Source: an uncultured Sphingobacteriales bacterium
Lineage (GTDB): Bacteria > Bacteroidota > Bacteroidia > Cytophagales > 172606-1
DNA length: 64,000 bases
NCBI GenBank assembly: GCA_963844325.1
Contig: CAWJNV010000002.1
Span: 3,897,824-3,961,823, forward strand
Direction of reading: 5' to 3'
In this document: positions 19,067 through 64,000 of the stretch, piece after piece
Layout of the letters: each line of letters opens with the position of its first letter
Numbering within the stretch: the first letter of the stretch is position 1
The notes under the pieces: model-generated
Told to the model about the DNA's origin: nothing
Database searches by the model: none
Seen by the model: the letters and a program-made list of their open reading frames with translations, nothing else
Program-made: the position numbers and the translations under genes

Positions 19067-19903
19067 ATGAACCAAAAGACACGTCGTAGTTTTTTGAAGC
19101 GTACCGTCGGCTCGGCGGCGGCGCTGGCGGGAACGGCCGTGGGAACGACCATTGAGGCAACCGCCGGGACTTCGGCAGGGAAGGCGCCGGTGCGGCTGCG
19201 GTTTGCGGTGGCTTCCGACGGACACTACGGACAGCCGGACACCGATTACGCCGGCTTTTACGGCAACATCGTCGTCTGGCTCAACCAGGAGAACGAACTG
19301 AACGGACTCGACTTCTGCGTGTTCAACGGCGACATCATCCACGACGGGCCCGAATTTCTGCCGCAGGCCAAGGCGGCCCTGGACGGGCTGAAAGTGCCGT
19401 ACTACGTCACCCGCGGCAACCACGACCGGGTATCGGCCGAAACCTGGCAGCAGACCTGGGGCTACCCGCCCGACCACAGCTTCGCCCGGGGCGACTACGC
19501 CTTCCTGCTGGGCAACACTTCCAACGAAAAAGGGGAATACCTGTGCGCCGACGTACGCTGGCTGAAGGAGACGCTCGAAAAGTACCGCCGGAAAACCCAC
19601 GTGTTCGTGTTCCTGCACATCACCCAGCGCAAGTGGACCGGCGCCGGCACCGAATGCCCCGAGGTGATGCAAACCCTGGCGGCCTACCCCAACGTGGCGG
19701 CCGTCTTCCACGGCCACGACCACGACGAACACGGCATCAAGACGGCCGACGGCAAGTCATACGTGTTCGACGGACACTTCGGCGGCAACTGGGGCGTGCC
19801 CTACAAAGGCTACCGCATCGTGGAAGTACCCGCCACCGGCAAGGTCAAAACCTACCAGTACAACCCGGAGGTGAATCCCATCGTCAATCTGAGCCAATTG
19901 TAA
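19067..19903 (+). CDS. Tat-secreted metallophosphoesterase (calcineurin-like)
   Basis: MNQKTRRSFLK (Tat signal); ASDGHYG, NGDIIHDG, TRGNHD and FHGHDHDEHG are the metallophosphatase motifs. Confidence 0.8.
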   Translation: MNQKTRRSFLKRTVGSAAALAGTAVGTTIEATAGTSAGKAPVRLRFAVASDGHYGQPDTDYAGFYGNIVVWLNQENELNGLDFCVFNGDIIHDGPEFLPQAKAALDGLKVPYYVTRGNHDRVSAETWQQTWGYPPDHSFARGDYAFLLGNTSNEKGEYLCADVRWLKETLEKYRRKTHVFVFLHITQRKWTGAGTECPEVMQTLAAYPNVAAVFHGHDHDEHGIKTADGKSYVFDGHFGGNWGVPYKGYRIVEVPATGKVKTYQYNPEVNPIVNLSQL

Positions 19904-20124
19904 TGGTTGAATGGCTGCATGGCTGCATGGCTATATGGCTATATGGCTATATGGTTGTTGATCGGGAAGGAGTCGTGCGCCAGCCCAACCATACAGCCAT
20001 TCAACCATACAGCCATATAACCATGCAGCCATATAACCATACAGCCATATAACCATACAGCCATATAACCATACAGCCATATAACCATACAGCCATATAA
20101 CCATACAGCCATATAACCATACAA
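19904..20124. repeat. Large 8-bp-word palindrome (CCATNNNN family) with unique core, between convergent genes
   Basis: Left arm ggttgaatggctgcatggctgcatggctatatgg...; core ttgttgatcgggaaggagtcgtgcgccagcccaacc. The right arm has about 17 units of ccatacag/ccatataa. The arm generates spurious ORFs MIVWLYGCMV.... Confidence 0.8.
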
Positions 20125-21419: not shown

Positions 21420-23585
21420 CTACCTGACGAGTACTACCTTGCCGGTCAGTGGTTTGCCTTTTTGCCCAACGGTAACCGTGTAGGTTCCTCTTTTCAGGTT
21501 CCCCACGAACAAGTCCACCTGATTCATGCCCGCCGCAACGGACCGGGTCGTGCTCAGCGCACTCCGGCCCTGGGCGTCGGTGAGCTGGAGGGATACCTGT
21601 GCTGCTTCGGGAGCCGCGAAGCTTACCCGGACCCAGTCGGTGCCCGGGTTGGGATGCACGCGCAGGCTGCCCTCCGTAGCGGACGCTTCCCCGGCAGTTT
21701 CCGCAACCGCCCGTGCGCCGGTGCCGGCCCGGAACAAGGCAGTGGTTGGAATGGCTCTTTTCGCAATGCCCGGCCCGGCGTAACTTACGTTGAGTACCTC
21801 CCCTCCCGTCTTTTCGAAGAAGGTTACTGTCAGGGCGTGTTTGCCCGCGCGCAACCGGATGGTTCCGGCGCGTTCACGGGGGCCGTGCAGCCCGTCGTTG
21901 TTCACCACCAGGGTATTGCCGATGTAGAGCCTGGAGCCGTCGTCGGAGGAGGTATAAAAGGTGTACAGCCCATTGGCGGGTACTTGCACGTAGCCCGTGA
22001 ACCGGAAGGCGAAATTGTCGCTGCGGTTGCGGGGCGCCAGCGAGAAATTAGTTACGGTACCCGTTTTCAGAGGAGTCAGACCGGAGAAATCAGGTAAGAC
22101 ATTCCAGTTGCCTTCGTAGTAAGTGTAATTGAGCCCGCCTGCCGTACTGGCGGGGTTCTCCGGGGAACGCAGGTAGGATAACTTATAGATCGTATGGCTG
22201 TAGTCATCGGAAATGAGCATATCCCCCTGGTGATCGATTGCCACGTCAACCGGCCGGCCGAGTACGCTCTGGGTTGCCTCATTGAGAAAACCCTTTACCA
22301 GGTCAATCTGGCCGGTGGGCGTCTGCGTTGCGCTGTTCCAGGGGAAAAAAGCTACCTTGTACCCCGTTTTCTTCGTTCGGTTCCAGGAACCGTGCATCCC
22401 TACGGCCGCTCCGGCCCGGTACCCATTGGCAAAGGAAGTGCTCTGCAGGAAGGTCAGGCCCAGCGGGGCCGAATGGGCCTGGATGCCCCGGTTGATGCGC
22501 GTCATGCCGTTGCAATCTACCTGCCCATTGCGGTTGAATTCGTAGTCACGGTCAAAGGGCATGTTTACCAGGGTGTTGTCGGGGTTAGGGTTACAAAAGG
22601 GCCAGCCGTAATTCCCCCCATCCTGCACGTAGGTAAACTCCTCGGGCGGATGATTGTCGACGTAACTCTGCAGCACCTTGCCGTAGTCATTGGTGCCGTC
22701 TCCGTTGAAATCACGGTTGAAGGGGTAGGCGATATTGTCGCGGTTGTTTACCACTGCCCACAGCCGGTTCGTGCCCGGCACGAAGGCAAGCCCCTCCGCA
22801 TTGCGCAGGCCCTGGGCAAACAGGCGCCGGCCGGTGCCATCTGCATTGTATTGGTAGATGGCGGCGCGGATGGGATCACTCTGCGAATCGGCCGAGCAAG
22901 CATTGCAGGAAGAAGCAATGGAGACGTACAGTTTATGGTTGCCGTCGAGGGCGATGTTTTTTAACCGGTGGCGGAAAGTCCCGTTCAGTTCGGGCGTGCT
23001 GGCAACGGGCAGACCCGTCACTACAATCTGCCGGTGGTGGGCCGTCAGGTCGCCCGCATTGTACACGTAGCGGTTGATCTGGTGGCTTTCGGCAATGTAC
23101 ACGTAGGTGGTAGTGCCAATTTGGTGAAAAACGATATCGTGCGGAAAGGAGAGGCCCGTAGCAAAATCGGAGATCAGCGGAGCGCCGCCGCCGTTAGGCC
23201 GTACCAGGAGCACTTTGCCGGTAGTGGGTTGTGAGACGAGCAGGTCCCCGTTGGGCGCAATTGCCATAAAACGCGGCTGGTTCACGCGGGCATAGACCGA
23301 GATGGTAAAATCGGGCGGTACCGTCAGGTAACGGTCCACGTGGAAGGGAGTCCAACGCATACTGGCCGGTACCTGCACTTTCACGGATACGGAAGCCGCC
23401 GGCGGGCTTTGGGCGTAACCCGGCCCGGCCAACAGCACCCATACAAGAGATAGATACGGCAATAGACGCACCCAACGGTGCTCCCGGGGAAGGGGTGATA
23501 CGGAGGCAGGAGTGTCCATAACGGTAAAGATTTGGTGAGGAAAGGAAGCAGAGAGGGTTAAAAGCGTAACCAGCCGGATCACCAC
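21420..23585 (-). CDS. PQQ-dependent sugar (glucose/sorbosone-type) dehydrogenase with PA14 domain and T9SS C-terminal sorting domain
   Basis: 721 aa with a signal peptide. Beta-propeller blocks (NGDLLVSQPTTGKV, GRPVDVAIDHQGDMLISD) indicate the dehydrogenase. The PA14-like segment is GLYTFYTSSDDGSRLYIG. The C-terminus ...LRVHPNPGTDWVRVSF...GTYTVTV...KVVLVR indicates a T9SS CTD. Confidence 0.65.
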   Translation of the reverse strand: MVIRLVTLLTLSASFPHQIFTVMDTPASVSPLPREHRWVRLLPYLSLVWVLLAGPGYAQSPPAASVSVKVQVPASMRWTPFHVDRYLTVPPDFTISVYARVNQPRFMAIAPNGDLLVSQPTTGKVLLVRPNGGGAPLISDFATGLSFPHDIVFHQIGTTTYVYIAESHQINRYVYNAGDLTAHHRQIVVTGLPVASTPELNGTFRHRLKNIALDGNHKLYVSIASSCNACSADSQSDPIRAAIYQYNADGTGRRLFAQGLRNAEGLAFVPGTNRLWAVVNNRDNIAYPFNRDFNGDGTNDYGKVLQSYVDNHPPEEFTYVQDGGNYGWPFCNPNPDNTLVNMPFDRDYEFNRNGQVDCNGMTRINRGIQAHSAPLGLTFLQSTSFANGYRAGAAVGMHGSWNRTKKTGYKVAFFPWNSATQTPTGQIDLVKGFLNEATQSVLGRPVDVAIDHQGDMLISDDYSHTIYKLSYLRSPENPASTAGGLNYTYYEGNWNVLPDFSGLTPLKTGTVTNFSLAPRNRSDNFAFRFTGYVQVPANGLYTFYTSSDDGSRLYIGNTLVVNNDGLHGPRERAGTIRLRAGKHALTVTFFEKTGGEVLNVSYAGPGIAKRAIPTTALFRAGTGARAVAETAGEASATEGSLRVHPNPGTDWVRVSFAAPEAAQVSLQLTDAQGRSALSTTRSVAAGMNQVDLFVGNLKRGTYTVTVGQKGKPLTGKVVLVR

Positions 23586-24139
23586 CCTGGGTAGGTGCCC
23601 GGCACGGGTTCAGCGGCGTTACCGCCCTTTCCGGTCAATAAGGAAAAGCGGCCCTGACGGGAAGTACGAAAACACAGTTTGGCAAAAGGAGCTAACGTTG
23701 CCGTTAAGCACGGCCCTTATCACAAAAAGATGTTGAGCAGCAAGATCGTAGCCAGGAGGTATACCGCAATGACGGTGCGGAAGAGAGGTAAAGCAGACAT
23801 TCTGGAGGCTAGCCCAAAGCACGCTGGTCAGCCGTAAGCCTACCCGTGAATACGCGTATTCGAAATCAGAGAACCCAACTCAGTACTTACACTTGCTGGA
23901 GCACAAAAAAAACCTGGCTGAATGTGCACAGCTTTTAAGTATAAATCAATACCTACTTTTAGGTATTTTTCTACCCGACGTCTTCCTGATCACCCCGCTG
24001 GCCCGGTACGCCAGGCACCACGGGCTGCCCAGATGAACCCGGTACGCAGCCTGTGCAGCGGACAGCCCCGCGGTGAAGGCCGGCCGGGATTGCGGGGCTT
24101 GCCGGTCCTTTCGTATCTTCGGGCAAAATTTTGCCCCTT

Positions 24140-24763
24140 ATGGGAGACGTACTCCTGAAACACAAACGCCTGCTGCTGCTCCTTGCCCTGTTGCCCGTCC
24201 TGCTGCCCGCCCGTGCGCAGGCCGTTTCCTTCGGCATCAAATTTTCGGGCCTCGCCATTCACCCCCGTCCGCAGCCCGTAGCCGGCCAGTACGGCGGCCG
24301 CCTCGACCGCAAGGGTTACGCAGTGATCACCCAGGGCCTGGCCCTCACCCTCGACGTGAACGTGTACCGTAACGTGGGCCTCAAGTTCATCCAGGCGCTG
24401 GTGTGGCGCGACTGCGCCAACAAGTTCGCCATGCTCAGCCACGTGGGCGTCAACTTCTTCGGGGCGGGCACCACGCTGGGCAAGGGTCGGCACGGGTTCA
24501 GCTGGAGCCTGGGACCGGTACTCTACCGGCGGCAATCGTGGAAGGACGTGCCGGGCTACGTGCCCGACGACAGTTGGCTCAAAGCTCCCGCTGGCAGCCG
24601 GTGGGAAACCAAGCTGGTGCTGCTGGGCGGCCAGCTGGAGTACAACTACTATTTCCGCGAGAATTACGGCCTGTCGCTCAACGTGTTGCCGGGCTACCCC
24701 GACGTGATCAGCGTGTCGGGCGGGGTGGGCAGAAGATCAGGATTAACAAGATTAAAGGATTAA
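24140..24763 (+). CDS. Hypothetical secreted/outer-membrane protein (possible PagL-like acyl hydrolase barrel); 3' end runs into repeat
   Basis: MGDVLLKHKRLLLLLALLPVLLPARAQA is the signal. Beta-strand-like alternation follows. The last 9 codons and the stop lie inside the ggattaa-word palindrome. Confidence 0.4.
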   Translation: MGDVLLKHKRLLLLLALLPVLLPARAQAVSFGIKFSGLAIHPRPQPVAGQYGGRLDRKGYAVITQGLALTLDVNVYRNVGLKFIQALVWRDCANKFAMLSHVGVNFFGAGTTLGKGRHGFSWSLGPVLYRRQSWKDVPGYVPDDSWLKAPAGSRWETKLVLLGGQLEYNYYFRENYGLSLNVLPGYPDVISVSGGVGRRSGLTRLKD

Positions 24764-24968
24764 CCGGATGGATCGGGATTAATCGGATTAAAGGATTAGC
24801 AGGATTACGACGACCGAAATCCTCTTAATCTTTTAATCCGGTTAATCCCAATCCTAATCCGGTTAATCTCAATCCGGTTAATCCCGATCCTAATCCGGTT
24901 AATCTCAATCCTAATCCGGTTAATCCCGATCCATCCGGTTAATCCTTTAATCTTGTTAATCCTGATCC
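24735..24968. repeat. 8-bp-word palindrome (ttaatcnn / nngattaa) spanning the 3' ends of two convergent genes
   Basis: gatcaggattaacaagattaaaggattaa (24736-24765) is the reverse complement of ttaatcctttaatcttgttaatcctgatc (24941-24965). Between them lie about 20 tandem 8-bp units (ccggttaatcccaatcctaat...). Confidence 0.8.
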
Positions 24969-30609: not shown

Positions 30610-30880
30610 TGAGTAGGATAGGGTTCGGGGAATAGGAATAGGGTTTGGATATGGGATAGGGTTAAAACCCTATCCTATGGATATTGGGGAGGAAGCTTGC
30701 TAGGTTGGTCATAGCTCAGGTAGGATAGCAGGATAGGGTTTAAACCCTATCCTGCCAATGGGCAAATTGAACCCGCGAACCCAATATCCATAGGATAGGG
30801 TTTTAACCCTATCCCATATCCAAACCCTATCCAAAAAAAACATCCCGCCAACGCTACTCGCCCCGAACCCTATTCCCCAA
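30610..30880. repeat. REP/BIME-like cluster (ggatagggtt-aaaccctatcc units) upstream of RAYT gene
   Basis: At least four units: gggatagggttaaaaccctatcctatgg, caggatagggtttaaaccctatcctg, ataggatagggttttaaccctatcc and others. The same spacer motif ggatattggg..gaagcttg occurs as in the downstream cluster. Confidence 0.8.
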
Positions 30881-42627: not shown

Positions 42628-42759
42628 GGCGTTGGCGGATTTAGGTGAAGGATAGAGTCAATATAAACATCTTTTTCCAAAACCTCCTCGGCCGCCCGCC
42701 TAAATCTTCGCCAACCCGCCTTGTGCCGATGGGACGAGTACGTAGGTGTACCGACAAAC

Positions 42760-42893
42760 GGTTGTATGGCTGAATGGCTGAATGGCTGAATGGTTATATG
42801 GCTAAATGGCTGTATGGTTGACCGGATAGGTCATAGACCATGTAACCATTTAGCCATTCAGCCATATAGCCATTCAGCCATACAACCATTTGC
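42760..42893. repeat. 8-bp-word palindrome (CCATNNNN family)
   Basis: ggttgtatggctgaatggctgaatggctgaatggttatatggctaaatggctgtatgg ... ccatttagccattcagccatatagccattcagccatacaacc. Confidence 0.75.
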
Positions 42894-48107: not shown

Positions 48108-48215
48108 TTCGAGTAGTGAGTATTGAGTATTGAGTACAGCGCTGCTCATGTAATCCGGGCAAGTTTAAATACGCGGTACTCAATACTCAATACTCACTAC
48201 TTAATACTAACTACC
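48108..48215. repeat. 8-bp-word palindrome (gagtattg / caatactc)
   Basis: gagtagtgagtattgagtattgagtac ... gtactcaatactcaatactcactacttaatactaactacc. Confidence 0.75.
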
Positions 48216-50955: not shown

Positions 50956-51088
50956 GGTTGAATGGCTATATGGCTGAATGGCTGAAAGTTGATTGTTGAA
51001 TGGCTATATGGTTGGGCTGGCGCACGACTCCTTCCCGATCAACAACCATTCAGCCATACAGCCATTCAACCATATAACCCTTTAGGTC
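50956..51088. repeat. 8-bp-word palindrome (CCATNNNN family) sharing the unique core of the 19904 element
   Basis: The core atggttgggctggcgcacgactccttcccgatcaacaaccat is the exact reverse complement of 19949-19990. Confidence 0.8.
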
Positions 51089-54153: not shown

Positions 54154-54554
54154 ACATCCTGCACATTGAAGACGACCCGCATTGCGTGGAACTCATGCAG
54201 CGGGCCATTGGGAAGCTGGGCCGGCCGCTGGATGTCCACGCGGTAACCGACGGGGAACTGGCGCTGAAGTTCCTGTCGGCGCGGGAGTGGCCGCCCCGGC
54301 TGATCGTGCTCGACCTGAAGATACCCAAGGTGAACGGCTTGCAGCTACTGGCGCAGTTGCGGGCGGAGGAGAAGACGCGCACCGTGCCCGTGATCGTGTT
54401 TTCCTCTTCGAAGGAGCCCCGCGACGTGGCCCTCTCGTACCAGGCCGGCGCCAACAGCTACGTGATCAAACCCCTCGAATACAAAGACTTCTTCGAAGCC
54501 GTCCAGCGCATCATCAACTACTGGCTCGGCGTCAACTACGCGGACGGGGGGTGA
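54141..54554 (+). CDS. Stand-alone response-regulator receiver protein
   Basis: ILHIEDDPHCVEL...LIVLDLKIPKVNG...ANSYVIKP. It overlaps the kinase gene by 13 bp. Confidence 0.8.
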   Translation: MHYVDILHIEDDPHCVELMQRAIGKLGRPLDVHAVTDGELALKFLSAREWPPRLIVLDLKIPKVNGLQLLAQLRAEEKTRTVPVIVFSSSKEPRDVALSYQAGANSYVIKPLEYKDFFEAVQRIINYWLGVNYADGG

Positions 54555-54722
54555 GGTTGAAAAGCTGTATGGTTGTATGGTTGTATGGTTAGATGGCTGA
54601 AGGGCCGGGGGGATAACTGGACCGGAGGGTTTTGTAGCCCTTCGGTTTTTATTTGCGGGGAAAAAATCAATTTTTGTACACCATACAACCATACAACCAT
54701 ACAACCATACAACCATACAACT
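54555..54722. repeat. 8-bp-word palindrome (ccatacaa x5 / ttgtatgg) with internal terminator-like stem
   Basis: ggttgaaaagctgtatggttgtatggttgtatggttagatgg ... ccatacaaccatacaaccatacaaccatacaaccatacaac. The core carries ccggagggttttgtagcccttcgg followed by ttttt. Confidence 0.75.
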
Positions 54723-54752
54723 TCCTAACCTCCCAACCCCTAACCTCCTCCT

Positions 54753-56087
54753 ATGCGCAAAATTACGCTGAGTGTTTTTTCCCTGTTGTTGTGCGGAGCC
54801 GCCTTCGGGCAGGCCGACCGGCTGCGGGCCGCCATCGACCGGGAAGCCGATAAACTGGAGCCGAAGATGATTGAGTGGCGCCGGCATTTCCACCAGAACC
54901 CCGAACTCTCGAACCGGGAAGTGAAAACGGCCGAGAAGATTGCCGCCCACCTCAAAAGCCTGGGCCTGGAAGTGCAGACGGGCGTAGCCAAAACCGGCGT
55001 GGTCGCCCTCCTGCGCGGCGACAAGCCCGGCCCGGTGGTGGCCCTGCGCGCCGACATGGACGCCCTGCCCGTAACCGAACGCAACAGCCTGCCCTTCGCC
55101 TCCAAGGCCCAGGGCGAATACAACGGCCAGACCGTGGGCGTAATGCACGCCTGCGGCCACGACACCCACGTAGCCATGCTCATGGGCGCCGCCCAAATCC
55201 TGGCCGGCATGAAGAAAGACCTGAAGGGCACGGTGAAGTTCATTTTCCAGCCGGCCGAAGAAGGCGCCCCCGCCGGCGAGGAAGGCGGCGCCAAAGTAAT
55301 GGTGCAGGAAGGCGTGCTCGACAAGCCGAAGGTAGACGCCATTTTCGGCATCCACATCAACTCGCAGCTCGAAGCGGGCAAGGTGGGCTACCGGCCCGGG
55401 GGCACCATGGCCAGCGTCAACTCATTCACCATCAAGGTCAACGGCCGCCAGACCCACGGCGCCTACCCCTGGTCGGGCGTAGACCCCATCGTCGTGTCGG
55501 CCCAGATGATCAACGCGCTGCAAACCATCGTGAGCCGCCAGATTGACATCACCGAAAATGCCGCCGTGGTAACGGTGGGCAGCATCCACGGAGGCGTGCG
55601 CAGCAACATCATTCCCGAGGAGGTCAACATGGAAGGCACCATCCGGGCGCTGAGCCCCGAAGACCGCCAGCAAATCCTCGACAAAGTGCGCCGCGTGGTG
55701 ACCAACGTGGCCGAAAGCGCCGGCGCCACTGCCGAGGTGAAGTTCAATGAGGGCTACCCCGTGACCTACAACGACCCGGACCTGACCAAGCGGATGGTGC
55801 CCACGCTGGAGGCGACGGCCGGCCGCGAAAACGCGGTGCTGCGGAAAGCCGTTACCGGCGCCGAAGACTTCTCGTTTTTCCAGGAGAAGGTACCCGGGGT
55901 GTTCGTGTTCGTGGGCGGCATGCCCAAGGGAAAAAAAGCCGAAGAGGTGCCGGCGCACCACACGCCGGATTTCTTCATTGACGAGAGCGGCCTGAAACTG
56001 GGCATGCGGCTGTACTGCACGATGGCCGTCGATTACCTGGAAGGGGGGAAGGACGCCGGGAAGTCGGCCAACAGCACGGGCAAGTAG
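54753..56087 (+). CDS. M20D-family amidohydrolase (aminoacylase/hippuricase-like), secreted
   Basis: Signal peptide. Then ...VALRADMDALP...MHACGHDTHVAMLMGAA...GTVKFIFQPAEEG are the metal-binding motifs of peptidase M20D. Confidence 0.8.
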   Translation: MRKITLSVFSLLLCGAAFGQADRLRAAIDREADKLEPKMIEWRRHFHQNPELSNREVKTAEKIAAHLKSLGLEVQTGVAKTGVVALLRGDKPGPVVALRADMDALPVTERNSLPFASKAQGEYNGQTVGVMHACGHDTHVAMLMGAAQILAGMKKDLKGTVKFIFQPAEEGAPAGEEGGAKVMVQEGVLDKPKVDAIFGIHINSQLEAGKVGYRPGGTMASVNSFTIKVNGRQTHGAYPWSGVDPIVVSAQMINALQTIVSRQIDITENAAVVTVGSIHGGVRSNIIPEEVNMEGTIRALSPEDRQQILDKVRRVVTNVAESAGATAEVKFNEGYPVTYNDPDLTKRMVPTLEATAGRENAVLRKAVTGAEDFSFFQEKVPGVFVFVGGMPKGKKAEEVPAHHTPDFFIDESGLKLGMRLYCTMAVDYLEGGKDAGKSANSTGK

Positions 56088-56289
56088 GACGGGGTTCGCA
56101 GGATGAAGGGATGACCGGGTTTGGAACCGGGTCATTCACACCAGACCAGGCCCGCCGGGAACGTTTCTCGGCGGGTTTTTTATGACCACTGACCAACAGT
56201 TATCCTAAAACGACTTCATGATCACGTATTTGTTCGCTTGTAATTCCTTCTAAAACAGGAAAGTACGAACAACCCACAACGAATGCGGA

Positions 56290-56688
56290 TTACTCCTTTC
56301 CCGCTCCCGGCTGGTGGTTGGCGTTGGAGGGGGAATTGCTGCTTTTGAGGCGCTTTACTTCTTCGCGGCATTCCTCCAGTTGTTCGATCTTCAGGTTCAT
56401 GTCCCGCATCAGGATCGAAATCTGTTCGTCCTTTGAGAGGTAGCGGGGCTCATTTTCATTGGCCCGGTTGTTGGAGTCGTGCCGCGACGCTTCGAGCCGC
56501 TCATCGAAAAAGTAGGTGATCGGCAGCCCCAGTACGTTGCAGATTTTCTGAAGCTGGCTCAGCTTGATGTCGTTGTTGGACAGTACGCTGCTCAGGTTTT
56601 GCTTACTCATCTCGATCTTCTTCGCCAGGTGCGTCAGGTTGATGCCCTTCGACTCAATGTATGCCTTGATCTTTTCGTTGACAGTCAT
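56290..56688 (-). CDS. XRE-family helix-turn-helix transcriptional regulator
   Basis: MTVNEKIKAYIESKGINLTHLAKKIEMSKQNLSSVLSNNDIKLSQLQKICNVLGL is a Cro/C1-type HTH. The region is low-GC. Confidence 0.7.
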   Translation of the reverse strand: MTVNEKIKAYIESKGINLTHLAKKIEMSKQNLSSVLSNNDIKLSQLQKICNVLGLPITYFFDERLEASRHDSNNRANENEPRYLSKDEQISILMRDMNLKIEQLEECREEVKRLKSSNSPSNANHQPGAGKE

Positions 56689-56818
56689 TTGTGTTTCAAT
56701 CGCTTATAATTCCGGTAAGAATAATGTTGAACAATAATTTGACTTTGGTAAAAACGATATTTAATATTATGGTTTCAAAAGAACAAATATACAACCTAGT
56801 ACAAACGACTGCAAAAGA

Positions 56819-57127
56819 ATGTTCATTAACTCCGGCAGGCAATCCATGATCAAGGCATCTCAGGCAGAAAAAATTCAGACAAAACACATCATTGAGCGCA
56901 TCACTGACCACATTCCGACGTCGGGATACGTACAAGCCGTACAGGCGGTACTCTCCAAGCGGGGCATCGTAAAGCCCGGCAGCGGCGAACCGTACGGACC
57001 CGAACAGATCCGCAACACGCGCAATTTGAGGGCGTACCATTTGCCGGTCGCCAGGATTTTTGAGGAACTCTATGACCCGGCCAACGGCCAGAAGCCGGCC
57101 GGGGAGCCGCCGCGGCAACCGTCGTGA
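56819..57127 (+). CDS. Hypothetical small protein divergent from the XRE regulator
   Basis: 102-aa ORF in the low-GC islet. No motif recognised. Confidence 0.3.
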   Translation: MFINSGRQSMIKASQAEKIQTKHIIERITDHIPTSGYVQAVQAVLSKRGIVKPGSGEPYGPEQIRNTRNLRAYHLPVARIFEELYDPANGQKPAGEPPRQPS

Positions 57128-57721
57128 CCCGCCGGGGCGGCCCCTGAAACTGGGGGCAACCGTCGTTAAAACGGCAAGGGCAGGGACCGGGCTTACCATC
57201 CCGTCGCCAAAAAAAGGGACTGTTTGGATTTAAAAATACGCCGGGCGTTCGTTTTTCCGAATCCGCTTAATGTGGGTTCTCCGTATGTAGGGCGTATTTA
57301 ACGAATCGGTCCGTGAGCCCCGGTCTTATGGGCTGGCGGTCAGCGGCTTGCTCCCTTGAATGCGTAACGCTGAGTGCGTAGCGGTGTTAACCGGCCGGTT
57401 TGCAACAAATTTTTGACCAGCCGGAGTCCCCGAAAGGATTTTTTCCCATGCGTAATTACAATTCCGTCAGTGGCCGCCCCCGGGCAGGCCCCTGCTTGTG
57501 CAACCTTAACTTAACTTCTCCCGATGATGCTGGCTGTTACCATCAACATGAGCATTCCTGAATACAATAGTATGAAGGAAGCCATTGGCCGTTTTTCGGA
57601 GCCCGTGCGTTACAAAGACGTGCTGGTCACGGACATGGCCGCCACGGTTACCCTCTACGTGTCGCGCCCCGCCGTCCTCTTCCAACTCGCCCTGACCATG
57701 GATAAGGTGAGGAGGAAGTAG

Positions 57722-57925
57722 GGAATGAAGGAGTTGGGGAGTTTAGGAGTTAGGGAGTTTGAGCGTTGGAGGGTTGGAGAAATTGAGCGTTGGGTAAATA
57801 CACATTCATAAAAACACCAGTGCGTAAAAGTGTGTCCAGAATTTCTCTTTTGCGCAGAAATTCCAACTCCCTTTCAACGCTCAAATTCCCTAACTCCATA
57901 ACTCCCAAACTCTCTAACTCCCTAC
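57722..57925. repeat. 8-bp-word palindrome (nnnttgga / tccaannn)
   Basis: gaatgaaggagttggggagtttaggagttagggagtttgagcgttggagggttggagaaattgagcgttggg ... ttccaactccctttcaacgctcaaattccctaactccataactcccaaactctctaactccc. Confidence 0.75.
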
Positions 57926-60608
57926 AGCCTCGGGTCGAGGGGTTCGCTTTCGAGGGCCAGGACGGCAAAGACGCATTCGTGCACGTGGCGGAGGGGCGCC
58001 CCGCCCACGAAGCGTTCGAGGGCTTCCAGGCCCAGGGCGAACTCGCGCAGGGCCAGCGACCGCTTGGCCCCCAGGCCCCGTTGCCGGAGCCGCTCCAGGT
58101 TGGCCGGGGCGTCGTATTCGGGGCCGTAGATGATGCGCAGGTATTCGGGGCCGCGGCACTTGACGGCCGGCTGCACGAGGCCCTTGCTCCCCCGGGTCAC
58201 GTAATCCAGGGGTTTTACCACCATGCCCTCGCCGCCCTTGCCGGTCAGGCCGAGCCACCACTCGATGGCAGCGGCCCGCTGGTCGTCGCGGGAGAGGTCT
58301 ACCACGCGGTAGGGCGTAGCCACCAGCCACTGCGGGTCGGCGGCGCAGACCTCGCGGATGCTGTCCAGGTGCCACCCGTGGTCCTTGTCGGCGTGCACGG
58401 CCCCTTCGGTCGCCAGGAGGTGGAAGGGCGCCAGGCGGTAGTCGTCCAGCGAATGCACCGGCCAGCAGTACCGCCGGTAGGCTTCCGTGAAACGCTCCGC
58501 CATCCCTTGCCGGGCCGCGTACGCATCGAGCAGCCCGTCTACGGCCAACCCCCGCGACCGGGCGGCGCTTGAGGGCGTCGAGCACGGCCGGCAGGGCGGC
58601 CCGGGAAGCGGCACCCACGGCGGCGTACTGGTTTTGCAGCAGTGCCTGCGCCTTGGCCGACCACGGCATCAGCTCGGTGTCGAGGCACACCCAGTCGGTG
58701 TTGAACTTTCTCCCAGAAGCCCGAACCGGTGAGGGCGGCGCGGACCCGTTCGAGGAAGGCGTTTTCCAGTGCCCCGTCGTTGAAGAAGGGGCGGCCGGTG
58801 CGGGTGTAGCACACGCCGGTTTCCCGCGCCGACCCGAACCGGCGCAGGGCCGCCGCTTCGTCGCGGCACACCACCACGACCGCCCGGGAACCCATGTGTT
58901 TTTCCTGGCATACCACCGTGCGCACGCCCACCGAGGCGTAGTGCGCCAGGGCTTCGGCCGGGTGTTCGAGGTAGCCCGGCAGCTTGCTGGTCTCCGACGG
59001 CGACATGGTGGGCGGCAGGTAGATCAGCCACTTGGGGTCCACGGCGAAGCGGCTCATCACCTCCAGGGCCGCCGACGCGTTTTCCGCCCGCACCGAGACG
59101 TTGTTGGCCAGCCGGGTGACCACGATGCGCTTGCCCAGCACCTCGTCGATGTCGAGCAACGCGTCGCTCTGCTGCTGCGCCGACGGGGCGTCGGCCCGTT
59201 CGTCGGGCTGGCGCAGGGGCCGCGCCGGTTCGTAGTACACCCGGCCGGCGGGCACGCTCACCAGTTCCCGCTCGGGATACCGCAGGGCCGTCAGTTCGCC
59301 CCCGAACACGCAGCCCGTGTCGATGTCGATGGTGTTGTTGAGCCATTCGGGCTCGGGTACCGGCGTGTGGCCGTACACCACCATTGCCTTGCCCCGGTAG
59401 TCGGCGGCCCAGTTGTAGCGGACGGGCAGGCCAAACTCGTCGGTCTCGCCGGTGGTTTCGCCGAAGAGGCAAACGACCGCACCGCCCCCGAGCCGCGGCC
59501 CTGCATTTCTTCTTTCAGCCCGGCGTGGGCCACCACCAGCCGGCCCCCGTCGAGCACGTAGTGGCTCACCAGCCCGTCGATGAATTGCCGTACTTGTGCC
59601 AGAAAAGCATCCGGCTCCCCGGCCAGTTGTTCCATCGTCTGGGCCAGGCCGTGCTTGATCTGCACGTTTTTGCCCCACAGTTTGCGCAGGAGCTTTATCG
59701 TCGTGGTTGCCGGGCACGCACAGGGCCGTGCCGGCGCGGACCATGCCCATCACCAGCCTGAGCACGGCCGGCGAGTCGGGTCCGCGGTCCACGAGGTCGC
59801 CCACGAACACGGCCGTGCGGCCCGGCGGGGGCACTACTTCGGTTTCGCCCGGAGCCCCGCCGGCCGGCCGTACTTCGTAGCCCAGCTTTTCGAGCAGCTG
59901 GGCCAGTTCGGCGTAGCAGCCGTGCACGTCGCCGATGATGTCGAAGGGGCCCGTGCGGTGGCGGAGGTTGTTGTAGAGGGGCTGCCGTTCGATGCCCGCC
60001 ACGGCGTCCACTTCTTCCGCGGAACGCAGCACGTGCACGTGGCGGAAGCCTTCCCGCTTGAGGTCGGGCAGGGAGCGGCGCAACTGGCTGCGGTGCTGGG
60101 CAATCACGTGGCGGCCGAAGTTGCGGTCGGGGCGGGCCTGGTTGCGGTCCTGGCACAGCCGTTCGGGCACGTCGAGCACAATGGCCACGGGCAGGCAGTG
60201 GAATTCGCGGGCCAGCTGCACGAGCGGCTTGCGGCTTTCGGGCTGCACGTTGGTGGCGTCCACGACGGTGAGCAGGCCGCGTTTGAGCCGCTTGCGGACG
60301 ATGAAGTGCAGCAGTTCGAAGGCGTCGCCGCTGGCGGACTGGTTGTTTTCGTCGTCCGACACCACGCCGCGGCAGGCGTCCGACGACACGATTTCGGTGG
60401 GCTTGAAGTGCCGGCGGGCAAACGTCGATTTACCCGAACCGGACGCCCCGATCAGCACCACCAGCGACAATTCGGGAATTTGTAGGGTCATATTGGTTTT
60501 GTTTAAGGAGTGAGAAGCGAGGAGCGAGAAGTGAGGAGTGAAAAGGCGGAGCACGAACTTGTACTGGGCTAACGGGTAAAGTACGTCTCCATTCTTCTCG
60601 CTTCTCAC
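57922..60608 (-). pseudogene. pnkp: Polynucleotide kinase-phosphatase/ligase Pnkp (RNA repair), disrupted by at least four frameshifts
   Basis: N-terminal kinase MTLQIPELSLVVLIGASGSGKSTFARRHF; phosphatase FDIIGDVHGCYAEL...ALCVPGNHDDK; C-terminal ligase-like region. The reading frame switches near 59697, 59480, 58700 and 58590; tracks 58539..60608, 59291..59665, 57914..58690 and 57922..58614 each carry part of the protein. Confidence 0.75.
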
Positions 60609-62026
60609 TCCTCGCTTCTCGCTCCTTTTTCAAACACTGCCATTTGCGACGGGGCGCCGGCATCGGGCGATTCGGGGCCGACGGGGTGGAAGCGGACCGA
60701 GTAGCCGTAGGTGCCGGCGATCTGGCCGCCCCAGGCTTCGAACTCGGCGCGGGTCCACTCGAACCGGTGGTCGGCGTGGCGGAAGGCGCCGGCCGACAGG
60801 GATTCGTAGAGCCGGTTGTACTCGGCGTTGGGCGTAGTGACCACCACTGTGCCCGGCCGGGCGTGGCCGAACACCACCCCTCCGAAGGCTTCCAGCCGTC
60901 CCGGGTCAAGGTGTTCGATCACTTCCACCACCGCCGCCGCGTCGTAGCCCATCAGGCGCTTGTCGCGGTACACCACCGACCCCTGCATGAGCGTAATGCG
61001 TTGCCGTTCGCGTTCGGGCAGGCGGTCGAAGTTGAGCTTGTCGCGGGCCATCTCCAGGGAGCGGGGCGACACGTCCATGCCCAGGATCGTTTGGAACTGT
61101 TTTTCGCGGAGCAACAGCCGCAGCAGTTTCCCTTCGCCGCAGCCCAGGTCGAGCACCCGGGTGGCGCCCGAGGCTTTGAGTTGTTCGAAGGCCGACTCCA
61201 GGCGCAACAGGTGCAGCGACTGCCGTTGGGCAACCACTTCGGCGGGTACCTCGTCGGGGTCGTCGGCTTCCGGGTCGCCGGCCTCCAGCAGCGAGAAGGC
61301 CTGCCGGGTGAGGGCGCCCAGGTTTTTGAGGTAGCGCCGCGTGATCTGTTCCCGTTCCGGGTGCGTTTGCAGCCAGCCTTCCCCCTTTGCCAGCAGCTTT
61401 TCCACCTCGTGTTCGCCGATCCAGTAGTGCTTGTCGTTGTCGAGCACCGGGATGAGCACGTAGAGGTGGGCCAGCAGGTCGCGGAGGCGCCGCCGCCCGG
61501 AGAGGGTCACCGTGAAGTAGCGGCTCGGGCCCCAGTCGGGAAACGTTTCGTCGAGCGGGTAGCCCTGCGCGTCTACGGCGTAGCCCAGCGGCTCGAACAG
61601 GCGCCGCAGCAGCCCTTCGCCGCCCCGTACGGGCAGCACCGACAGCGTCACCGTGAAGGGCAAGGGCGTGTCCACCAGTTCGGGCCGGTCCTTGCAGGTG
61701 CCGTTCATGGCCGTGGCAAAAGCTTTGGCGAGGGCCACTGCCAGGAACGACGAGGCCACGTACGGCCGGTCGTTGACGTAGTGTTCGAGGGCGAAGTTGT
61801 CGCCGGCGGGGCCTTTGGCGTTGCGCACCAGCCCGACCGGGTCAATGTCGAGCAGCAGGGCCACCGTGCAGCGTTCCGCGGAGGCTTCCGGGTAGAAAAT
61901 GTGCGCCTGGCCCGCCGAAAGCTCCACCGACTGCACCCTTGCCGGGTTCTTGTGCAGCAGGTAGCCCAGGTCGGTGGCGGGGGTATGGGTAGTAGTGATG
62001 GTGAGGAGCATGGGGTAAAGGGTCAA
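60605..62026 (-). CDS. hen1: Hen1 3'-terminal RNA ribose 2'-O-methyltransferase (bacterial Pnkp partner)
   Basis: 473 aa. The C-terminal MTase has RVLDLGCGEGKLL (SAM motif I) and VVEVIEHLDP. An N-terminal Hen1-specific domain is present. The 4-bp start/stop overlap with pnkp is typical of the pnkp-hen1 operon. Confidence 0.8.
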   Translation of the reverse strand: MTLYPMLLTITTTHTPATDLGYLLHKNPARVQSVELSAGQAHIFYPEASAERCTVALLLDIDPVGLVRNAKGPAGDNFALEHYVNDRPYVASSFLAVALAKAFATAMNGTCKDRPELVDTPLPFTVTLSVLPVRGGEGLLRRLFEPLGYAVDAQGYPLDETFPDWGPSRYFTVTLSGRRRLRDLLAHLYVLIPVLDNDKHYWIGEHEVEKLLAKGEGWLQTHPEREQITRRYLKNLGALTRQAFSLLEAGDPEADDPDEVPAEVVAQRQSLHLLRLESAFEQLKASGATRVLDLGCGEGKLLRLLLREKQFQTILGMDVSPRSLEMARDKLNFDRLPERERQRITLMQGSVVYRDKRLMGYDAAAVVEVIEHLDPGRLEAFGGVVFGHARPGTVVVTTPNAEYNRLYESLSAGAFRHADHRFEWTRAEFEAWGGQIAGTYGYSVRFHPVGPESPDAGAPSQMAVFEKGARSEE

Positions 62027-62135
62027 TAGTCATTGGTACATTGGTCATTGGTTGATTGGTCACGGGTCAATAGTCATCCGGATGCGTTGACTTACGCGTA
62101 CCCAATGACTAATGCACCAATGACCAATGACCGTC
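62027..62135. repeat. 8-bp-word palindrome (gtcattgg / ccaatgac)
   Basis: gggtcaatagtcattggtacattggtcattggttgattggtcac ... gtacccaatgactaatgcaccaatgaccaatgacc. Confidence 0.75.
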
Positions 62136-62930
62136 CTAATTGAGCAGCAACTGCCGGCCTTCGGTTTCGCCGGGGGAATGGGTGATCAGGTTGAGGATCA
62201 TTTCGCGGTAGCCGGCGATGGGCAGTTCCACCTCGCGGTGCAAGGTACGGCGCAGCACCTGGGTTTCGGTGTTGCGCACCGGGTCGAAGCCTTTGCGCTG
62301 GGCCATCTTCCAGTAGAAGCCCATGCCCCGTTTCTGCCAGGCGGGCAGGTCGTTGTAGTTGATGCCCAGGCTGAAGAGCAGTTCGTTCTTTTCGCTCACC
62401 GACAGCTTGTAGATGCGTTCCGAGGCTTCGCGCAGCGAGAGGCCCCGTTCGCGGAGCTTCCAGTAGCAGTAGGCGCTCAGGGCATTGCGGTTGGCGTCTT
62501 CGGCCCGCCAGCTGAAGTAGTCGGCCACCACCTTTTCGGTGGGCAGCACCGACAGCCGGGCGTCGAAGGCGCCGATGTGGCCCAGGGCGTGCGTAAAGGC
62601 GGCGCTGGCTTCACCGGCCAGGACTGAGAGCAGCTTGCGGTGCAGGCGGTTGAACGAGGCGTCGTCGCGGTGGAAGAGCAGGGAGATTTCGTCGCTCTGC
62701 GTGTAGCCGTAGGTGAAGTTGAAGCCGCTCTGCATGAGGTGTTCGGTGGCGGCACTCATGGCTTCGCGGAACCGGAAGTCGAAAGGTTTTTCCAGGTACA
62801 GGGTTTCTTTGGTCAGCTTGGTAAAGCCCCGGCCGTCGAGGCGGGCCACGATGTAAAACCCGGGCGGTACCGACTGGTCGGCGGCCGTTTCGTAGAGCCG
62901 CATCTTCTCGTCCAGTTGCGAAAATTTCAT
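62136..62930 (-). CDS. Thg1-like protein (tRNA-His guanylyltransferase family, 3'-5' nucleotidyltransferase)
   Basis: MKFSQLDEKMRLYETAADQSVPPGFYIVARLDGRGFTKLTKE...YGYTQSDEISLLF has the Thg1 N-terminal catalytic Asp/Glu pattern. The upstream in-frame extension to 63200 is non-protein-like. Confidence 0.75.
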   Translation of the reverse strand: MKFSQLDEKMRLYETAADQSVPPGFYIVARLDGRGFTKLTKETLYLEKPFDFRFREAMSAATEHLMQSGFNFTYGYTQSDEISLLFHRDDASFNRLHRKLLSVLAGEASAAFTHALGHIGAFDARLSVLPTEKVVADYFSWRAEDANRNALSAYCYWKLRERGLSLREASERIYKLSVSEKNELLFSLGINYNDLPAWQKRGMGFYWKMAQRKGFDPVRNTETQVLRRTLHREVELPIAGYREMILNLITHSPGETEGRQLLLN

Positions 62931-63438
62931 ATAGCTAGTATTTTGAGTCAGTTGAGACATGGGTTGAGGACATGGGTTGGTACAAGTACCGGAAACAGGC
63001 ATTACGGGCAGCCACAGCAAGGGCAACCCGGCAAGCAGGGTCGGGCGGACGGGCCATTGGGGTCCTTTTCGCCCTTTTTGCCACCAAGACACTACGGCAC
63101 GAAGGAGCACCAGGAGAAACCCCTGCGCGTACCGGCACCACAAGCCGGGTGCGGCCGGAACAGCGGTCAGACAAACTCCCGGGGCGGCGGATGATTGCAT
63201 AAATAATCTTTAGGAATCTTCAGGAAAAACGGGCAACAGCGTGCCGGGCAAAAACACATAACGGACGAAATGCCGGATACGGGATAGCCGGTCCGGAGAA
63301 AGTATTTTACTGCTTTGGTTTAGAAGTCGGTTTCACGAAAAAGAGGGTTTCACGAAAAAGTGGGTTTCACGCAAAGACGCAAAGGAAGACCGCAAAGGGC
63401 GCAAAGAAGGAGCCCTAACTGCCGCATTCTCTTTCTTG

Positions 63439-63742
63439 CGTCGCAAAGGGCCGCGTCGCGGGAAAGGGTCGCGTCGCGGCTCCCCTCCTCGGAGGGGTTA
63501 GGGGGTGGGTTTACCTCCATGCGACGAGCTATATAGGGATCACCGCATTGCGTTGATCTCCCTCACACCACTGCTAAACTTTCTGCGAATTCTCCCTTCT
63601 GCGGAATTCCCATTGTGGTGATCCCCAGATCACGCGGGGCATGGAAGTAAACCCACCCCCTAACCCCTCCGAGGAGGGGAGCCGCGACGCGACCCTTTCC
63701 CGCGACGCGACCCTTTCCCGCCATGCGGCCCTTTTGCGACGC
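63439..63742. repeat. Large inverted repeat (~75-bp arms, ~130-bp centre), MITE-like
   Basis: gcgtcgcaaagggccgcgtcgcgggaaagggtcgcgtcgcggctcccctcctcggaggggttagggggtgggtttac is the reverse complement of gtaaacccaccccctaacccctccgaggaggggagccgcgacgcgaccctttcccgcgacgcgaccctttcccgcc...gcgacgc. Confidence 0.75.
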
Positions 63743-63755
63743 AAGGAAAAGTAGC

Positions 63756-63906
63756 GTGCTATACTAAGGTGCAAGACCTCACCCCCGGCCCCTCTCCCAA
63801 GGAGAGGGGAGAATAACCTGTTTTATAATAACCTGTTTGACAAATATTTATGTCTCCCCTCTCCTTGGGAGAGGGGCCGGGGGTGAGGTCTTGCACCTTA
63901 GTATGG
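63756..63906. repeat. Nested palindrome of the cccctctcc/ggagagggg family (intact copy of the 45795-46140 element)
   Basis: tatactaaggtgcaagacctcacccccggcccctctccc aaggagaggggaga ...loop... tctcccctctcc ttgggagaggggccgggggtgaggtcttgcaccttagtat. Confidence 0.75.
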
Positions 63907-64000
63907 TGCCGTGCCCATATGACGCTTTGTTACTTTGGTCTTCTTCACTTTGTGCCCTTTTCCGCGTCAGCCTCCTTCCCGATCCTCCTCCGGTCTGCCG

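What the first reader, a model, noticed from the sequence alone, without database searches (positions are those of the whole stretch)
57922..60608. pnkp is broken by multiple frameshifts while hen1 and the Thg1-like gene are intact
The Pnkp reading frame must switch at least four times. After GNHDDK (~59697) a single extra g converts KLLRKLWGKNVQIKHG into APAQTVGQKRADQ. It switches back near 59480, again near 58700, and again near 58590. The rest of the window shows no such errors, so this looks like genuine pseudogenisation. The closely coupled hen1 (4-bp overlap) remains full length. This may mean loss of the ligase/healing function with retention of the methyltransferase, or a very recent decay.
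Basis: seen in the sequence. Interest (0 to 1): 0.6.

Follow-up and report, generated by a model that had tools for sequence, protein, structure and literature searches.

The report
Four frameshifts in an otherwise pristine pnkp
The RNA-repair gene pnkp is interrupted by four single-base indels but shows no other decay, so this is either a local assembly error or a very recent, ordinary gene loss.

Summary
On the minus strand, pnkp (ATG 60491, stop 57922) differs from six intact close relatives (89-94% nt identity) by exactly four private 1-nt indels: +T at 59697, -T in the run at 59471-59473, +A at 58711 and +C at 58567. Reverting them gives a clean 855-aa kinase-phosphatase-ligase. hen1 and the Thg1-like gene are intact. 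No other gene in the 64 kb shows a frameshift signature.

The interpretation of genuine pseudogenisation is not established. The gene shows no decay. dN/dS is 0.16-0.18, against 0.19-0.21 among intact relatives. All 242 near-invariant family positions are kept, and there are no nonsense codons. hen1 and thg1 are equally constrained.

The window comes from an unannotated single 7.72-Mb contig, probably a long-read assembly. The closest lineage found is a Logan contig from run ERR11592907. It is exactly colinear with the window, and its pnkp frame is open where the window's +C forces a TGA.

I favour a local consensus or assembly artefact (about 0.55). A very recent real inactivation is the rival (about 0.35). 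Only reads can decide.

The claimed 4-bp hen1/pnkp overlap is an ORF-extension artefact. The genes are 113 nt apart, across a strong hairpin.

Either way this is an ordinary, known Pnkp-Hen1 cassette.

The parts
57922..60491 (-). pnkp (polynucleotide kinase / 2',3'-phosphatase / ligase). It is broken into five frame segments by four 1-nt indels; repaired length is 855 aa.
   Evidence: The repaired protein is 95% identical to P0001 over 855 aa. It aligns end to end with the C. thermocellum Pnkp kinase, phosphatase and ligase crystal chains.
59697..59697 (-). Indel 1: extra T (codon 265, GAC GA[T] AAA G). It shifts the frame after GNHD.
   Evidence: It is absent from all six relatives. It lies in a variable codon.
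59471..59473 (-). Indel 2: TTT where all relatives have TTTT (codon 340). It returns reading to the original frame after 75 garbled codons.
58711..58711 (-). Indel 3: extra A (codon 594, TGG G[A]G AAA G). It ends the correct frame in the middle of the ligase domain.
   Evidence: Relative P0423 and C. thermocellum both read GFWG(K/D)FNTDW here.
58567..58567 (-). Indel 4: extra C (codon 642, AAG [C]GCC GCC).
   Evidence: The Logan contig from ERR11592907 has a 249-codon open frame through this site. The window cannot give that frame, because it has a TGA at 58669-58671.
58539..60608 (-). Longest ORF as written (689 aa from a spurious GTG; 650 aa from the real ATG). It holds an intact kinase, a phosphatase with 75 out-of-frame codons, the ligase N-terminal part up to codon 593, and then an out-of-frame tail.
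   Evidence: (P0172).
60498..60634 (.). Hairpin element filling the 113-nt hen1-pnkp spacer. Its left arm supplies the last 7 codons of hen1.
   Evidence: RNA fold -66.7 kcal/mol, z = -7.6.
60605..62011 (-). hen1, intact (468 aa; Hen1_L and methyltransferase domains).
   Evidence: dN/dS 0.13-0.19.
62136..62930 (-). Thg1-like gene, intact (264 aa).
   Evidence: dN/dS 0.09-0.14.
57524..57721 (+). Conserved 65-aa ORF 201 nt beyond the pnkp stop. It was used as the handle that found the closest lineage.

Best explanation
The locus is an ordinary Thg1-like / Hen1 / Pnkp RNA-repair cassette. In the organism, pnkp is most likely still a continuous 855-codon gene. The four private 1-nt indels, all within 1.13 kb, are most likely errors of the consensus sequence at this spot in a long-read-type assembly.

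Shown: the indels exist in the deposited sequence, they are private to it, and the gene carries no other sign of decay.

Inferred: they arose during assembly or polishing. One possible route is mixing of reads from co-occurring near-identical strains. Each of the three insertions sits in a variable codon and can be read as both alleles of a SNP being kept (GA[T|A]AAG, GGG[A|G]AAAG, AAG[C|G]CC).

If the gene is intact, it would work as described for C. thermocellum Pnkp-Hen1. The kinase and phosphatase heal 5'-OH and 2',3'-cyclic-phosphate ends of ribotoxin-cut RNA. The ligase, activated by the Hen1 N-terminal domain, seals them. Hen1 2'-O-methylates the junction.
For: 1. No relaxation of constraint. 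Substitutions on the window branch are 37 synonymous to 16 non-synonymous, against 32:18 and 50:28 in intact sisters. Pairwise dN/dS with the window is 0.158-0.182, against 0.186-0.206 among intact genes.
2. The repaired protein keeps all 242 near-invariant positions of 119 full-length homologues. Every private replacement is at a variable site. There are no nonsense codons.
3. A likelihood profile allows at most about 12 neutral substitutions since any inactivation. At an assumed indel:substitution ratio of 0.1 (my own ballpark, not a figure from a cited paper), four or more indels then has P < 0.04.
4. The partners hen1 and thg1-like are intact and constrained.
5. The window's proteins map to one unannotated 7,719,408-bp contig in NCBI/ENA, which suggests a long-read (meta)genome. 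Long-read contigs from relatives and other organisms show how common indel-broken pnkp calls are (L004, L087, L088).
6. The closest lineage is a Logan contig from ERR11592907. Its gene map is colinear with window 55143-58673 to the base, including a 201-nt spacer seen in no other relative. Its pnkp is called as 249 codons running off the contig edge. That is impossible with the window's +C, which puts a TGA at 58669-58671.
7. All four changes are exactly 1 nt, and the three insertions lie in variable codons 265, 594 and 642.
Against: The clustering is hard to explain by ordinary error. There are four indels in 1.13 kb and none in about 47 kb of other coding sequence. The chance of all four falling in one gene under uniform error is about 1e-4. 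The 197 homopolymers of 5 nt or more outside pnkp, and nine inside it, are all in frame. Three of the four indels are not in homopolymers, so they do not look like typical nanopore, HiFi or 454 errors.

High GC does not single out pnkp, because moeA at 6.8-8.0 kb is as GC-rich and is intact. A dead gene is exactly where real indels would accumulate.

I could not obtain the reads, the sequencing platform or the DNA of the Logan contig. That contig is not the same clone: its HTH protein is not identical to the window's. It covers only site 4.
Confidence: 0.55

Rival explanations
1. Genuine but very recent inactivation. A first frameshift killed pnkp and three more 1-nt indels followed. This happened so recently that neither pnkp, hen1 nor thg1 has yet accumulated detectable neutral substitutions. 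The cell would keep a Pnkp fragment with only the kinase active, plus Hen1 and the Thg1-like enzyme. RNA end-sealing by this cassette would be lost.
For: The indels occur only in this gene, which is what a dead gene predicts. The rest of the window is clean, including 197 homopolymers of 5 nt or more, so the assembly is generally accurate. Counts of insertions and deletions in bacterial pseudogenes are nearly equal (ratio 0.76-0.94; PMC6054270), so 3 insertions to 1 deletion is not unusual. If the indel:substitution ratio (an assumed value) were as high as 0.3, four indels with 10-13 or fewer neutral substitutions is not improbable. Pnkp-Hen1 cassettes are accessory genes.
Against: There is no excess of non-synonymous change, no hit at any of 242 invariant positions and no nonsense codon. 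At an assumed ratio of about 0.1, four indels would come with about 40 neutral substitutions, which is rejected (delta logL about -10). All four are exactly 1 nt, and three lie outside runs where slippage would act. The nearest lineage is intact at site 4. Only one hit is needed for loss of function, so nothing selects for four.
Confidence: 0.35
2. Old pseudogene in steady decay, with the methyltransferase retained for another role.
For: There are four frameshifts.
Against: dN/dS is equal to or lower than in intact orthologues. All invariant residues are kept. There are no stops and no indels larger than 1 nt. hen1 and thg1 are equally constrained.
Confidence: 0.03
3. The gene is expressed through programmed recoding (+1, -1, +1, +1 ribosomal frameshifts or transcriptional slippage).
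For: Sites 1 and 3 both read GA-N-AAA-G, where a tRNA-Lys could in principle slip +1.
Against: None of the orthologues examined (six aligned at DNA level, more than 120 at protein level) needs a shift. Sites 2 and 4 have no slippery sequence. There are no long homopolymers for transcriptional slippage. The AAAG motifs are ancestral lysine codons and were not created by the indels. Four different recoding events in one gene have no precedent that I know of (own knowledge).
Confidence: 0.02

Closest known systems
Clostridium thermocellum Pnkp-Hen1 RNA repair system (PDB 4gp6, 4j6o, 4drf, 3ty8; PMC3675462)
   Same: The three-module architecture is the same: P-loop kinase 1-171, binuclear metallophosphoesterase 172-424 and adenylyltransferase ligase 445-855. 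The repaired protein aligns end to end with E-values of 1e-67 to 1e-161. The motifs GASGSGKS, GDVHG, GDLVDRG, GNHD, VVAHAG, GHTP and KHMGS are all present. hen1 lies immediately upstream with Hen1_L and methyltransferase domains.
   Different: As written, the ORF is interrupted four times. The equivalent of His323 and everything after codon 593 are out of frame. hen1 and pnkp are separated by a 113-nt hairpin-forming spacer. A Thg1-like gene lies upstream.
Cytophagales soil-crust orthologues (P0001, JGI 3300055067; MBD0256902.1; CAA9345558.1 from MAG AVDCRST_MAG56)
   Same: They share 90-95% protein identity over 853-855 aa. Synteny is the same: Thg1-like, Hen1, Pnkp, a 65-aa ORF, a ~100-aa ORF, an XRE regulator and an M20 peptidase.
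   Different: All have continuous ORFs. Spacer lengths and hairpin elements differ.
Indel-fragmented genes in long-read assemblies (for example PMC9262707 and PMC12007338, both seen only as search-result abstracts; contigs L004, L087, L088 here)
   Same: Single-base indels split an otherwise perfectly conserved gene. The source is a very long single contig without annotation.
   Different: In L004, L087 and L088 the breaks hit most genes. Here they are confined to one gene and are mostly outside homopolymers.
Young bacterial pseudogenes (PMC2916853, seen only as a search-result abstract; PMC6054270)
   Same: The gene is inactivated by small frameshifting indels and its neighbours are intact.
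   Different: Here there are four hits without any accompanying substitutional decay, and all four are exactly 1 nt.

Membership tests
Pnkp (bacterial polynucleotide kinase-phosphatase-ligase) | N-terminal P-loop polynucleotide 5'-kinase module | tested here: met
   AAA_33 E = 1.4e-29. Residues 1-171 align to 4gp6 at E = 2.6e-67. GASGSGKS lies at 15-22. This module is in frame as written.
Pnkp (bacterial polynucleotide kinase-phosphatase-ligase) | Central binuclear metallophosphoesterase with the essential Asp187, His189, Asp233, Arg237, Asn263, His264, His323, His376 and Asp392 equivalents (PMC3675462) | tested here: inconclusive
As written, codons 265-339, which include the His323 equivalent (H322 in VVAHAG), are out of frame.
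Pnkp (bacterial polynucleotide kinase-phosphatase-ligase) | C-terminal PNKP_ligase adenylyltransferase domain, full length, with the KxxG lysine | tested here: inconclusive
K531 lies in EKHMGS. As written, the frame is lost after codon 593, so GEGMVVK and VKCRG are out of frame.
Pnkp (bacterial polynucleotide kinase-phosphatase-ligase) | One continuous ORF of about 850-870 codons | tested here: not met
   There are four private 1-nt indels. The longest ORF from the true ATG is 650 aa.
Pnkp-Hen1 operon | Adjacent hen1 encoding a Pnkp-binding N-terminal domain plus a 2'-O-methyltransferase | tested here: met
   Hen1_L matches 1-241 of 242 positions at E = 1.5e-115, with methyltransferase domains as well. 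The gene is 113 nt upstream on the same strand.
Thg1-like protein (TLP) | Thg1 catalytic domain plus Thg1 C-terminal domain | tested here: met
   PF04446 E = 3.7e-30 and PF14413 E = 1.8e-14. The 264-aa protein is 94% identical to intact relatives.
Decaying pseudogene | Relaxed selective constraint (raised dN/dS, hits at invariant residues, nonsense codons) | tested here: not met
Programmed ribosomal frameshift gene | The shift is conserved in orthologues and occurs at a slippery motif | tested here: not met
   All orthologues are continuous. There is no slippery heptamer at sites 2 and 4.
Assembly or consensus error | The indels are absent from the underlying reads | not testable with these tools
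The only indirect evidence is the gene-call geometry at site 4.

The most novel reading that the evidence does not exclude
The four indels are real and arose together in one burst of localised, indel-only mutagenesis, for example error-prone repair of clustered breaks in pnkp. The lineage would be left with a kinase-only Pnkp fragment working with intact Hen1 and a Thg1-like enzyme in a re-wired RNA end-modification pathway that does not ligate.
Probability: 0.04. Interest if true: 0.5.

Novelty: already known. Interest (0 to 1): 0.12.

Why it matters
It matters little beyond annotation hygiene. If the indels are errors, the organism has a normal, complete Pnkp-Hen1-TLP RNA-repair cassette, and the gene should not be counted as lost. 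If they are real, it is one more very young pseudogene in an accessory system.

The useful general point is methodological. A gene with several frameshifts but unchanged dN/dS and untouched invariant residues should be treated as suspect sequence until reads are checked.

Tried and rejected
1. Two scans of metagenome contigs looked for same-strain DNA. One used a strain-specific pattern across site 2 and one used a 30-mer conserved in all relatives. Both found nothing. The collection evidently lacks even the JGI contigs already in hand.
2. A short-protein search across sites 1-2 returned only short, distant fragments (80% identity or less). It was uninformative.
3. Exact look-ups of the window's own hen1, the 689-aa ORF, the M20 peptidase and thg1 were not on record. 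The source record and its platform could therefore not be identified. A literature search for ERR11592907 gave nothing.
4. GC-driven coverage loss is not specific to pnkp, because moeA is equally GC-rich and intact.
5. Recombination or a mosaic origin for the indel-bearing segment is rejected. The window is closest to L001 and L085 along the whole gene.
6. Global assembly noise is rejected by the codon-LLR scan and Pfam checks of suspicious junctions.
7. I dropped insertion bias as an argument against real mutation after reading PMC6054270, which reports an insertion:deletion count ratio of about 0.8-0.9.
8. I tried to read strain heterogeneity from where the Logan contig ends. This was inconclusive and I dropped it.
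9. There are no Rfam families or tRNAs in the window.

Full report
**What is there**

The region 57,922-63,000 of the minus strand carries three genes: a Thg1-like gene (62136-62930), hen1 (60605-62011) and pnkp (ATG 60491, stop 57922). Pfam finds Thg1 and Thg1C, Hen1_L plus methyltransferase, and, on a conceptually repaired Pnkp, AAA_33 kinase, Metallophos and a full-length PNKP_ligase domain (377 of 377 positions, E = 7.5e-182). The repaired protein aligns end to end with the three crystallised modules of Clostridium thermocellum Pnkp.

**The observation**

Three-frame translation shows that the Pnkp sequence jumps frame four times. I fetched six intact orthologous genes from metagenome contigs and MAGs of Cytophagales (L001, L085, L002/L003, L086, L005). 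They are 89-94% identical in DNA and share the window's synteny.

In the DNA alignment the window differs by exactly four private 1-nt indels: +T at 59697, loss of one T from a TTTT run at 59471-59473, +A at 58711 and +C at 58567. The relatives differ from one another only by 3-nt and 6-nt indels. Reverting the four changes gives an 855-codon ORF with no internal stop. It is 95.0% identical to P0001.

As written, the longest product has three parts:
- An intact kinase.
- A phosphatase in which codons 265-339 are out of frame. This removes the equivalent of His323, an essential metal ligand of the C. thermocellum enzyme (PMC3675462; mapping).
- A ligase that ends after codon 593. It keeps the adenylylated lysine (K531) but loses the later nucleotidyltransferase motifs.

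One detail is wrong. The '4-bp overlap' with hen1 comes from extending the ORF to a GTG at 60608. Every homologue starts at the ATG at 60491 (M-x-x-x-IPELSLVV). hen1 and pnkp are 113 nt apart, and the spacer folds into a hairpin of -66.7 kcal/mol, z = -7.6.

**Is the rest of the window clean?**

I trained a codon-usage log-odds score on long ORFs of the window. I then looked in all six frames for coding segments that stop well before their stop codon, which is the signature of a frameshift. Only the three pnkp pieces do so, at 62, 66 and 215 codons short. Every other strong segment ends within 26 codons of its stop.

Same-strand ORF junctions that looked suspicious turned out to be separate genes with complete Pfam domains. 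Outside pnkp there are 197 homopolymers of 5 nt or more in 47 kb of coding sequence, none with a frameshift.

Global noise is therefore excluded. By contrast, the long-read-type contigs L004 (a relative) and L087 and L088 (other organisms) have many of their genes broken.

**Has the gene decayed?**

It has not.
- **Branch substitutions.** Parsimony-polarised substitutions on the window branch are 37 synonymous to 16 non-synonymous. The intact sisters show 32:18 and 50:28.
- **Pairwise dN/dS.** Nei-Gojobori dN/dS for pairs that include the window is 0.158-0.182. Among intact genes it is 0.186-0.206. There is no excess inside the indel-bearing interval.
- **Invariant residues.** In an alignment with 119 full-length homologues, the repaired protein keeps all 242 near-invariant positions. 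All 16 private replacements fall at variable positions, nearly all to residues seen in other family members.
- **Partner genes.** hen1 and the Thg1-like gene are equally constrained, at 0.09-0.19.
- **Likelihood bound.** A simple Poisson profile allows at most about 12 neutral substitutions since any inactivation. With an assumed indel:substitution ratio of 0.1 (my own ballpark), four or more indels in that time has P < 0.04. With an assumed ratio of 0.3 it is not improbable.

An old or steadily decaying pseudogene is excluded. Only a very recent event or an artefact remains.

**Provenance and the closest lineage**

Exact look-up shows that the window's proteins come from one unannotated 7,719,408-bp contig held by NCBI and ENA. 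This suggests a long-read (meta)genome assembly. I could not retrieve the record.

Looking up the 65-aa ORF that lies 201 nt beyond the pnkp stop found a 3,532-nt Logan contig from run ERR11592907.
- M20 ends at 946.
- The HTH regulator is at 1149-1547.
- The 102-aa ORF is at 1678-1986.
- The 65-aa ORF is at 2383-2580.
- The pnkp stop is at 2781.

The 201-nt spacer is found in no other relative, where it ranges from 44 to 723 nt. This is therefore the nearest lineage known.

Its pnkp fragment is called as 249 codons running off the contig edge. In the window as written, that frame has a TGA at 58669-58671, exactly at the edge codon, because of the +C at 58567. As I recall Prodigal's rules (assuming a Prodigal-type caller was used), such a call would not be possible there. 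The simplest reading is that the nearest lineage lacks indel 4.

The contig is not the same clone, because its HTH protein is not identical to the window's. It stops 38 nt short of site 3.

**Weighing the two live explanations**

For an artefact:
- The gene shows no decay.
- hen1 and thg1 are intact.
- The source looks like a long-read assembly.
- The nearest lineage is intact at site 4.
- All four changes are exactly 1 nt.
- The three insertions lie in variable codons 265, 594 and 642. Each can be read as both alleles of a SNP being retained, which is the kind of consensus error that I would expect mixed strains to produce (inference, not tested).

Against an artefact, and for a real event:
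- The indels are confined to one gene. The chance under uniform error is about 1e-4.
- They are mostly outside homopolymers, while all longer runs are correct.
- High GC does not single out pnkp.

I withdrew an argument from insertion bias. Bacterial pseudogenes show nearly equal counts of insertions and deletions (PMC6054270).

Programmed recoding is rejected. All orthologues examined are continuous, and two of the sites have no slippery sequence.

My estimate is 0.55 for a local consensus or assembly artefact, 0.35 for a very recent real inactivation, and the remainder for other scenarios.

**Comparison with what is known, and novelty**

The cassette is a standard Pnkp-Hen1 RNA-repair system with an associated Thg1-like enzyme. 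In relatives there are RlaP genes just upstream (PMC12776372 and PMC3061083). Neither an assembly-broken gene nor a young pseudogene is new. Interest is low.

**What would settle it**

Read mapping over 58,400-59,800 would settle it, as would Sanger sequencing or the ERR11592907 contigs that cover sites 1-3.

Noticed in passing
window 54546-54739, 57712-57931, 60498-60634, 62021-62132, 63445-63716, 63761-63904; also 19903-20120, 24735-24967, 30638-30830, 42755-42892, 48112-48201, 50956-51079: Many intergenic spacers, including every one checked at 54-64 kb, carry a long imperfect hairpin. Arms are 30-106 nt and loops are mostly 20-120 nt. The arms are built from short tandem-like units, often with 8-nt periodicity (for example ATGGCTGA/ATGGTTGT, GGATTAAN, CATTGGTC). 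Arm sequence differs between spacers and the loops are unrelated. This looks like a genome-wide family of structured intergenic elements. I do not know a described equivalent.
   Followed up: partly
window 60605-60634 (3' end of hen1): The left arm of the hen1-pnkp spacer hairpin supplies the last codons of hen1 (…MAVFEKGARSEE* against …MAVFEINQ* in relatives). In L002/L003 the same spacer is about 590 nt long, hen1 is extended to 496 aa and a 161-aa ORF is called inside the spacer. The spacer is a hot spot for such insertions.
   Followed up: partly
window 56290-57721; L002 8612-10057, L085 3040-4467, L086 3946-5392: A trio is conserved next to pnkp in all relatives: a 65-aa ORF, a 102-105-aa ORF (neither has a Pfam match) and an XRE-type HTH regulator (132 aa). 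They lie in a lower-GC stretch (0.45-0.54). They could be a regulatory or toxin-antitoxin-like module linked to the repair cassette.
   Followed up: no
L002 426-2268; L004 1170-2214: Two RlaP (PF10127) nucleotidyltransferase genes precede the Thg1-like gene in relatives. The window ends at 64000, before they would appear. Window 63200-64000 holds only hairpin repeats.
   Followed up: no
L004 (JGI 3300041964), L087 and L088 (ENA ERZ25039493, ERZ25039465): These long contigs have many or most genes split into fragments (M20 in four pieces, RlaP in three, hen1 truncated, pnkp with two extra Cs). They look like unpolished long-read assemblies. Many 'short Metallophos' proteins in the large protein database are such Pnkp fragments.
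   Followed up: partly
window 21420-23609 (minus strand): A 729-aa ORF with GSDH-like, PA14 and Por_Secre_tail (T9SS sorting) domains has a markedly weaker codon-usage score than its neighbours. It may have been acquired recently.
   Followed up: no
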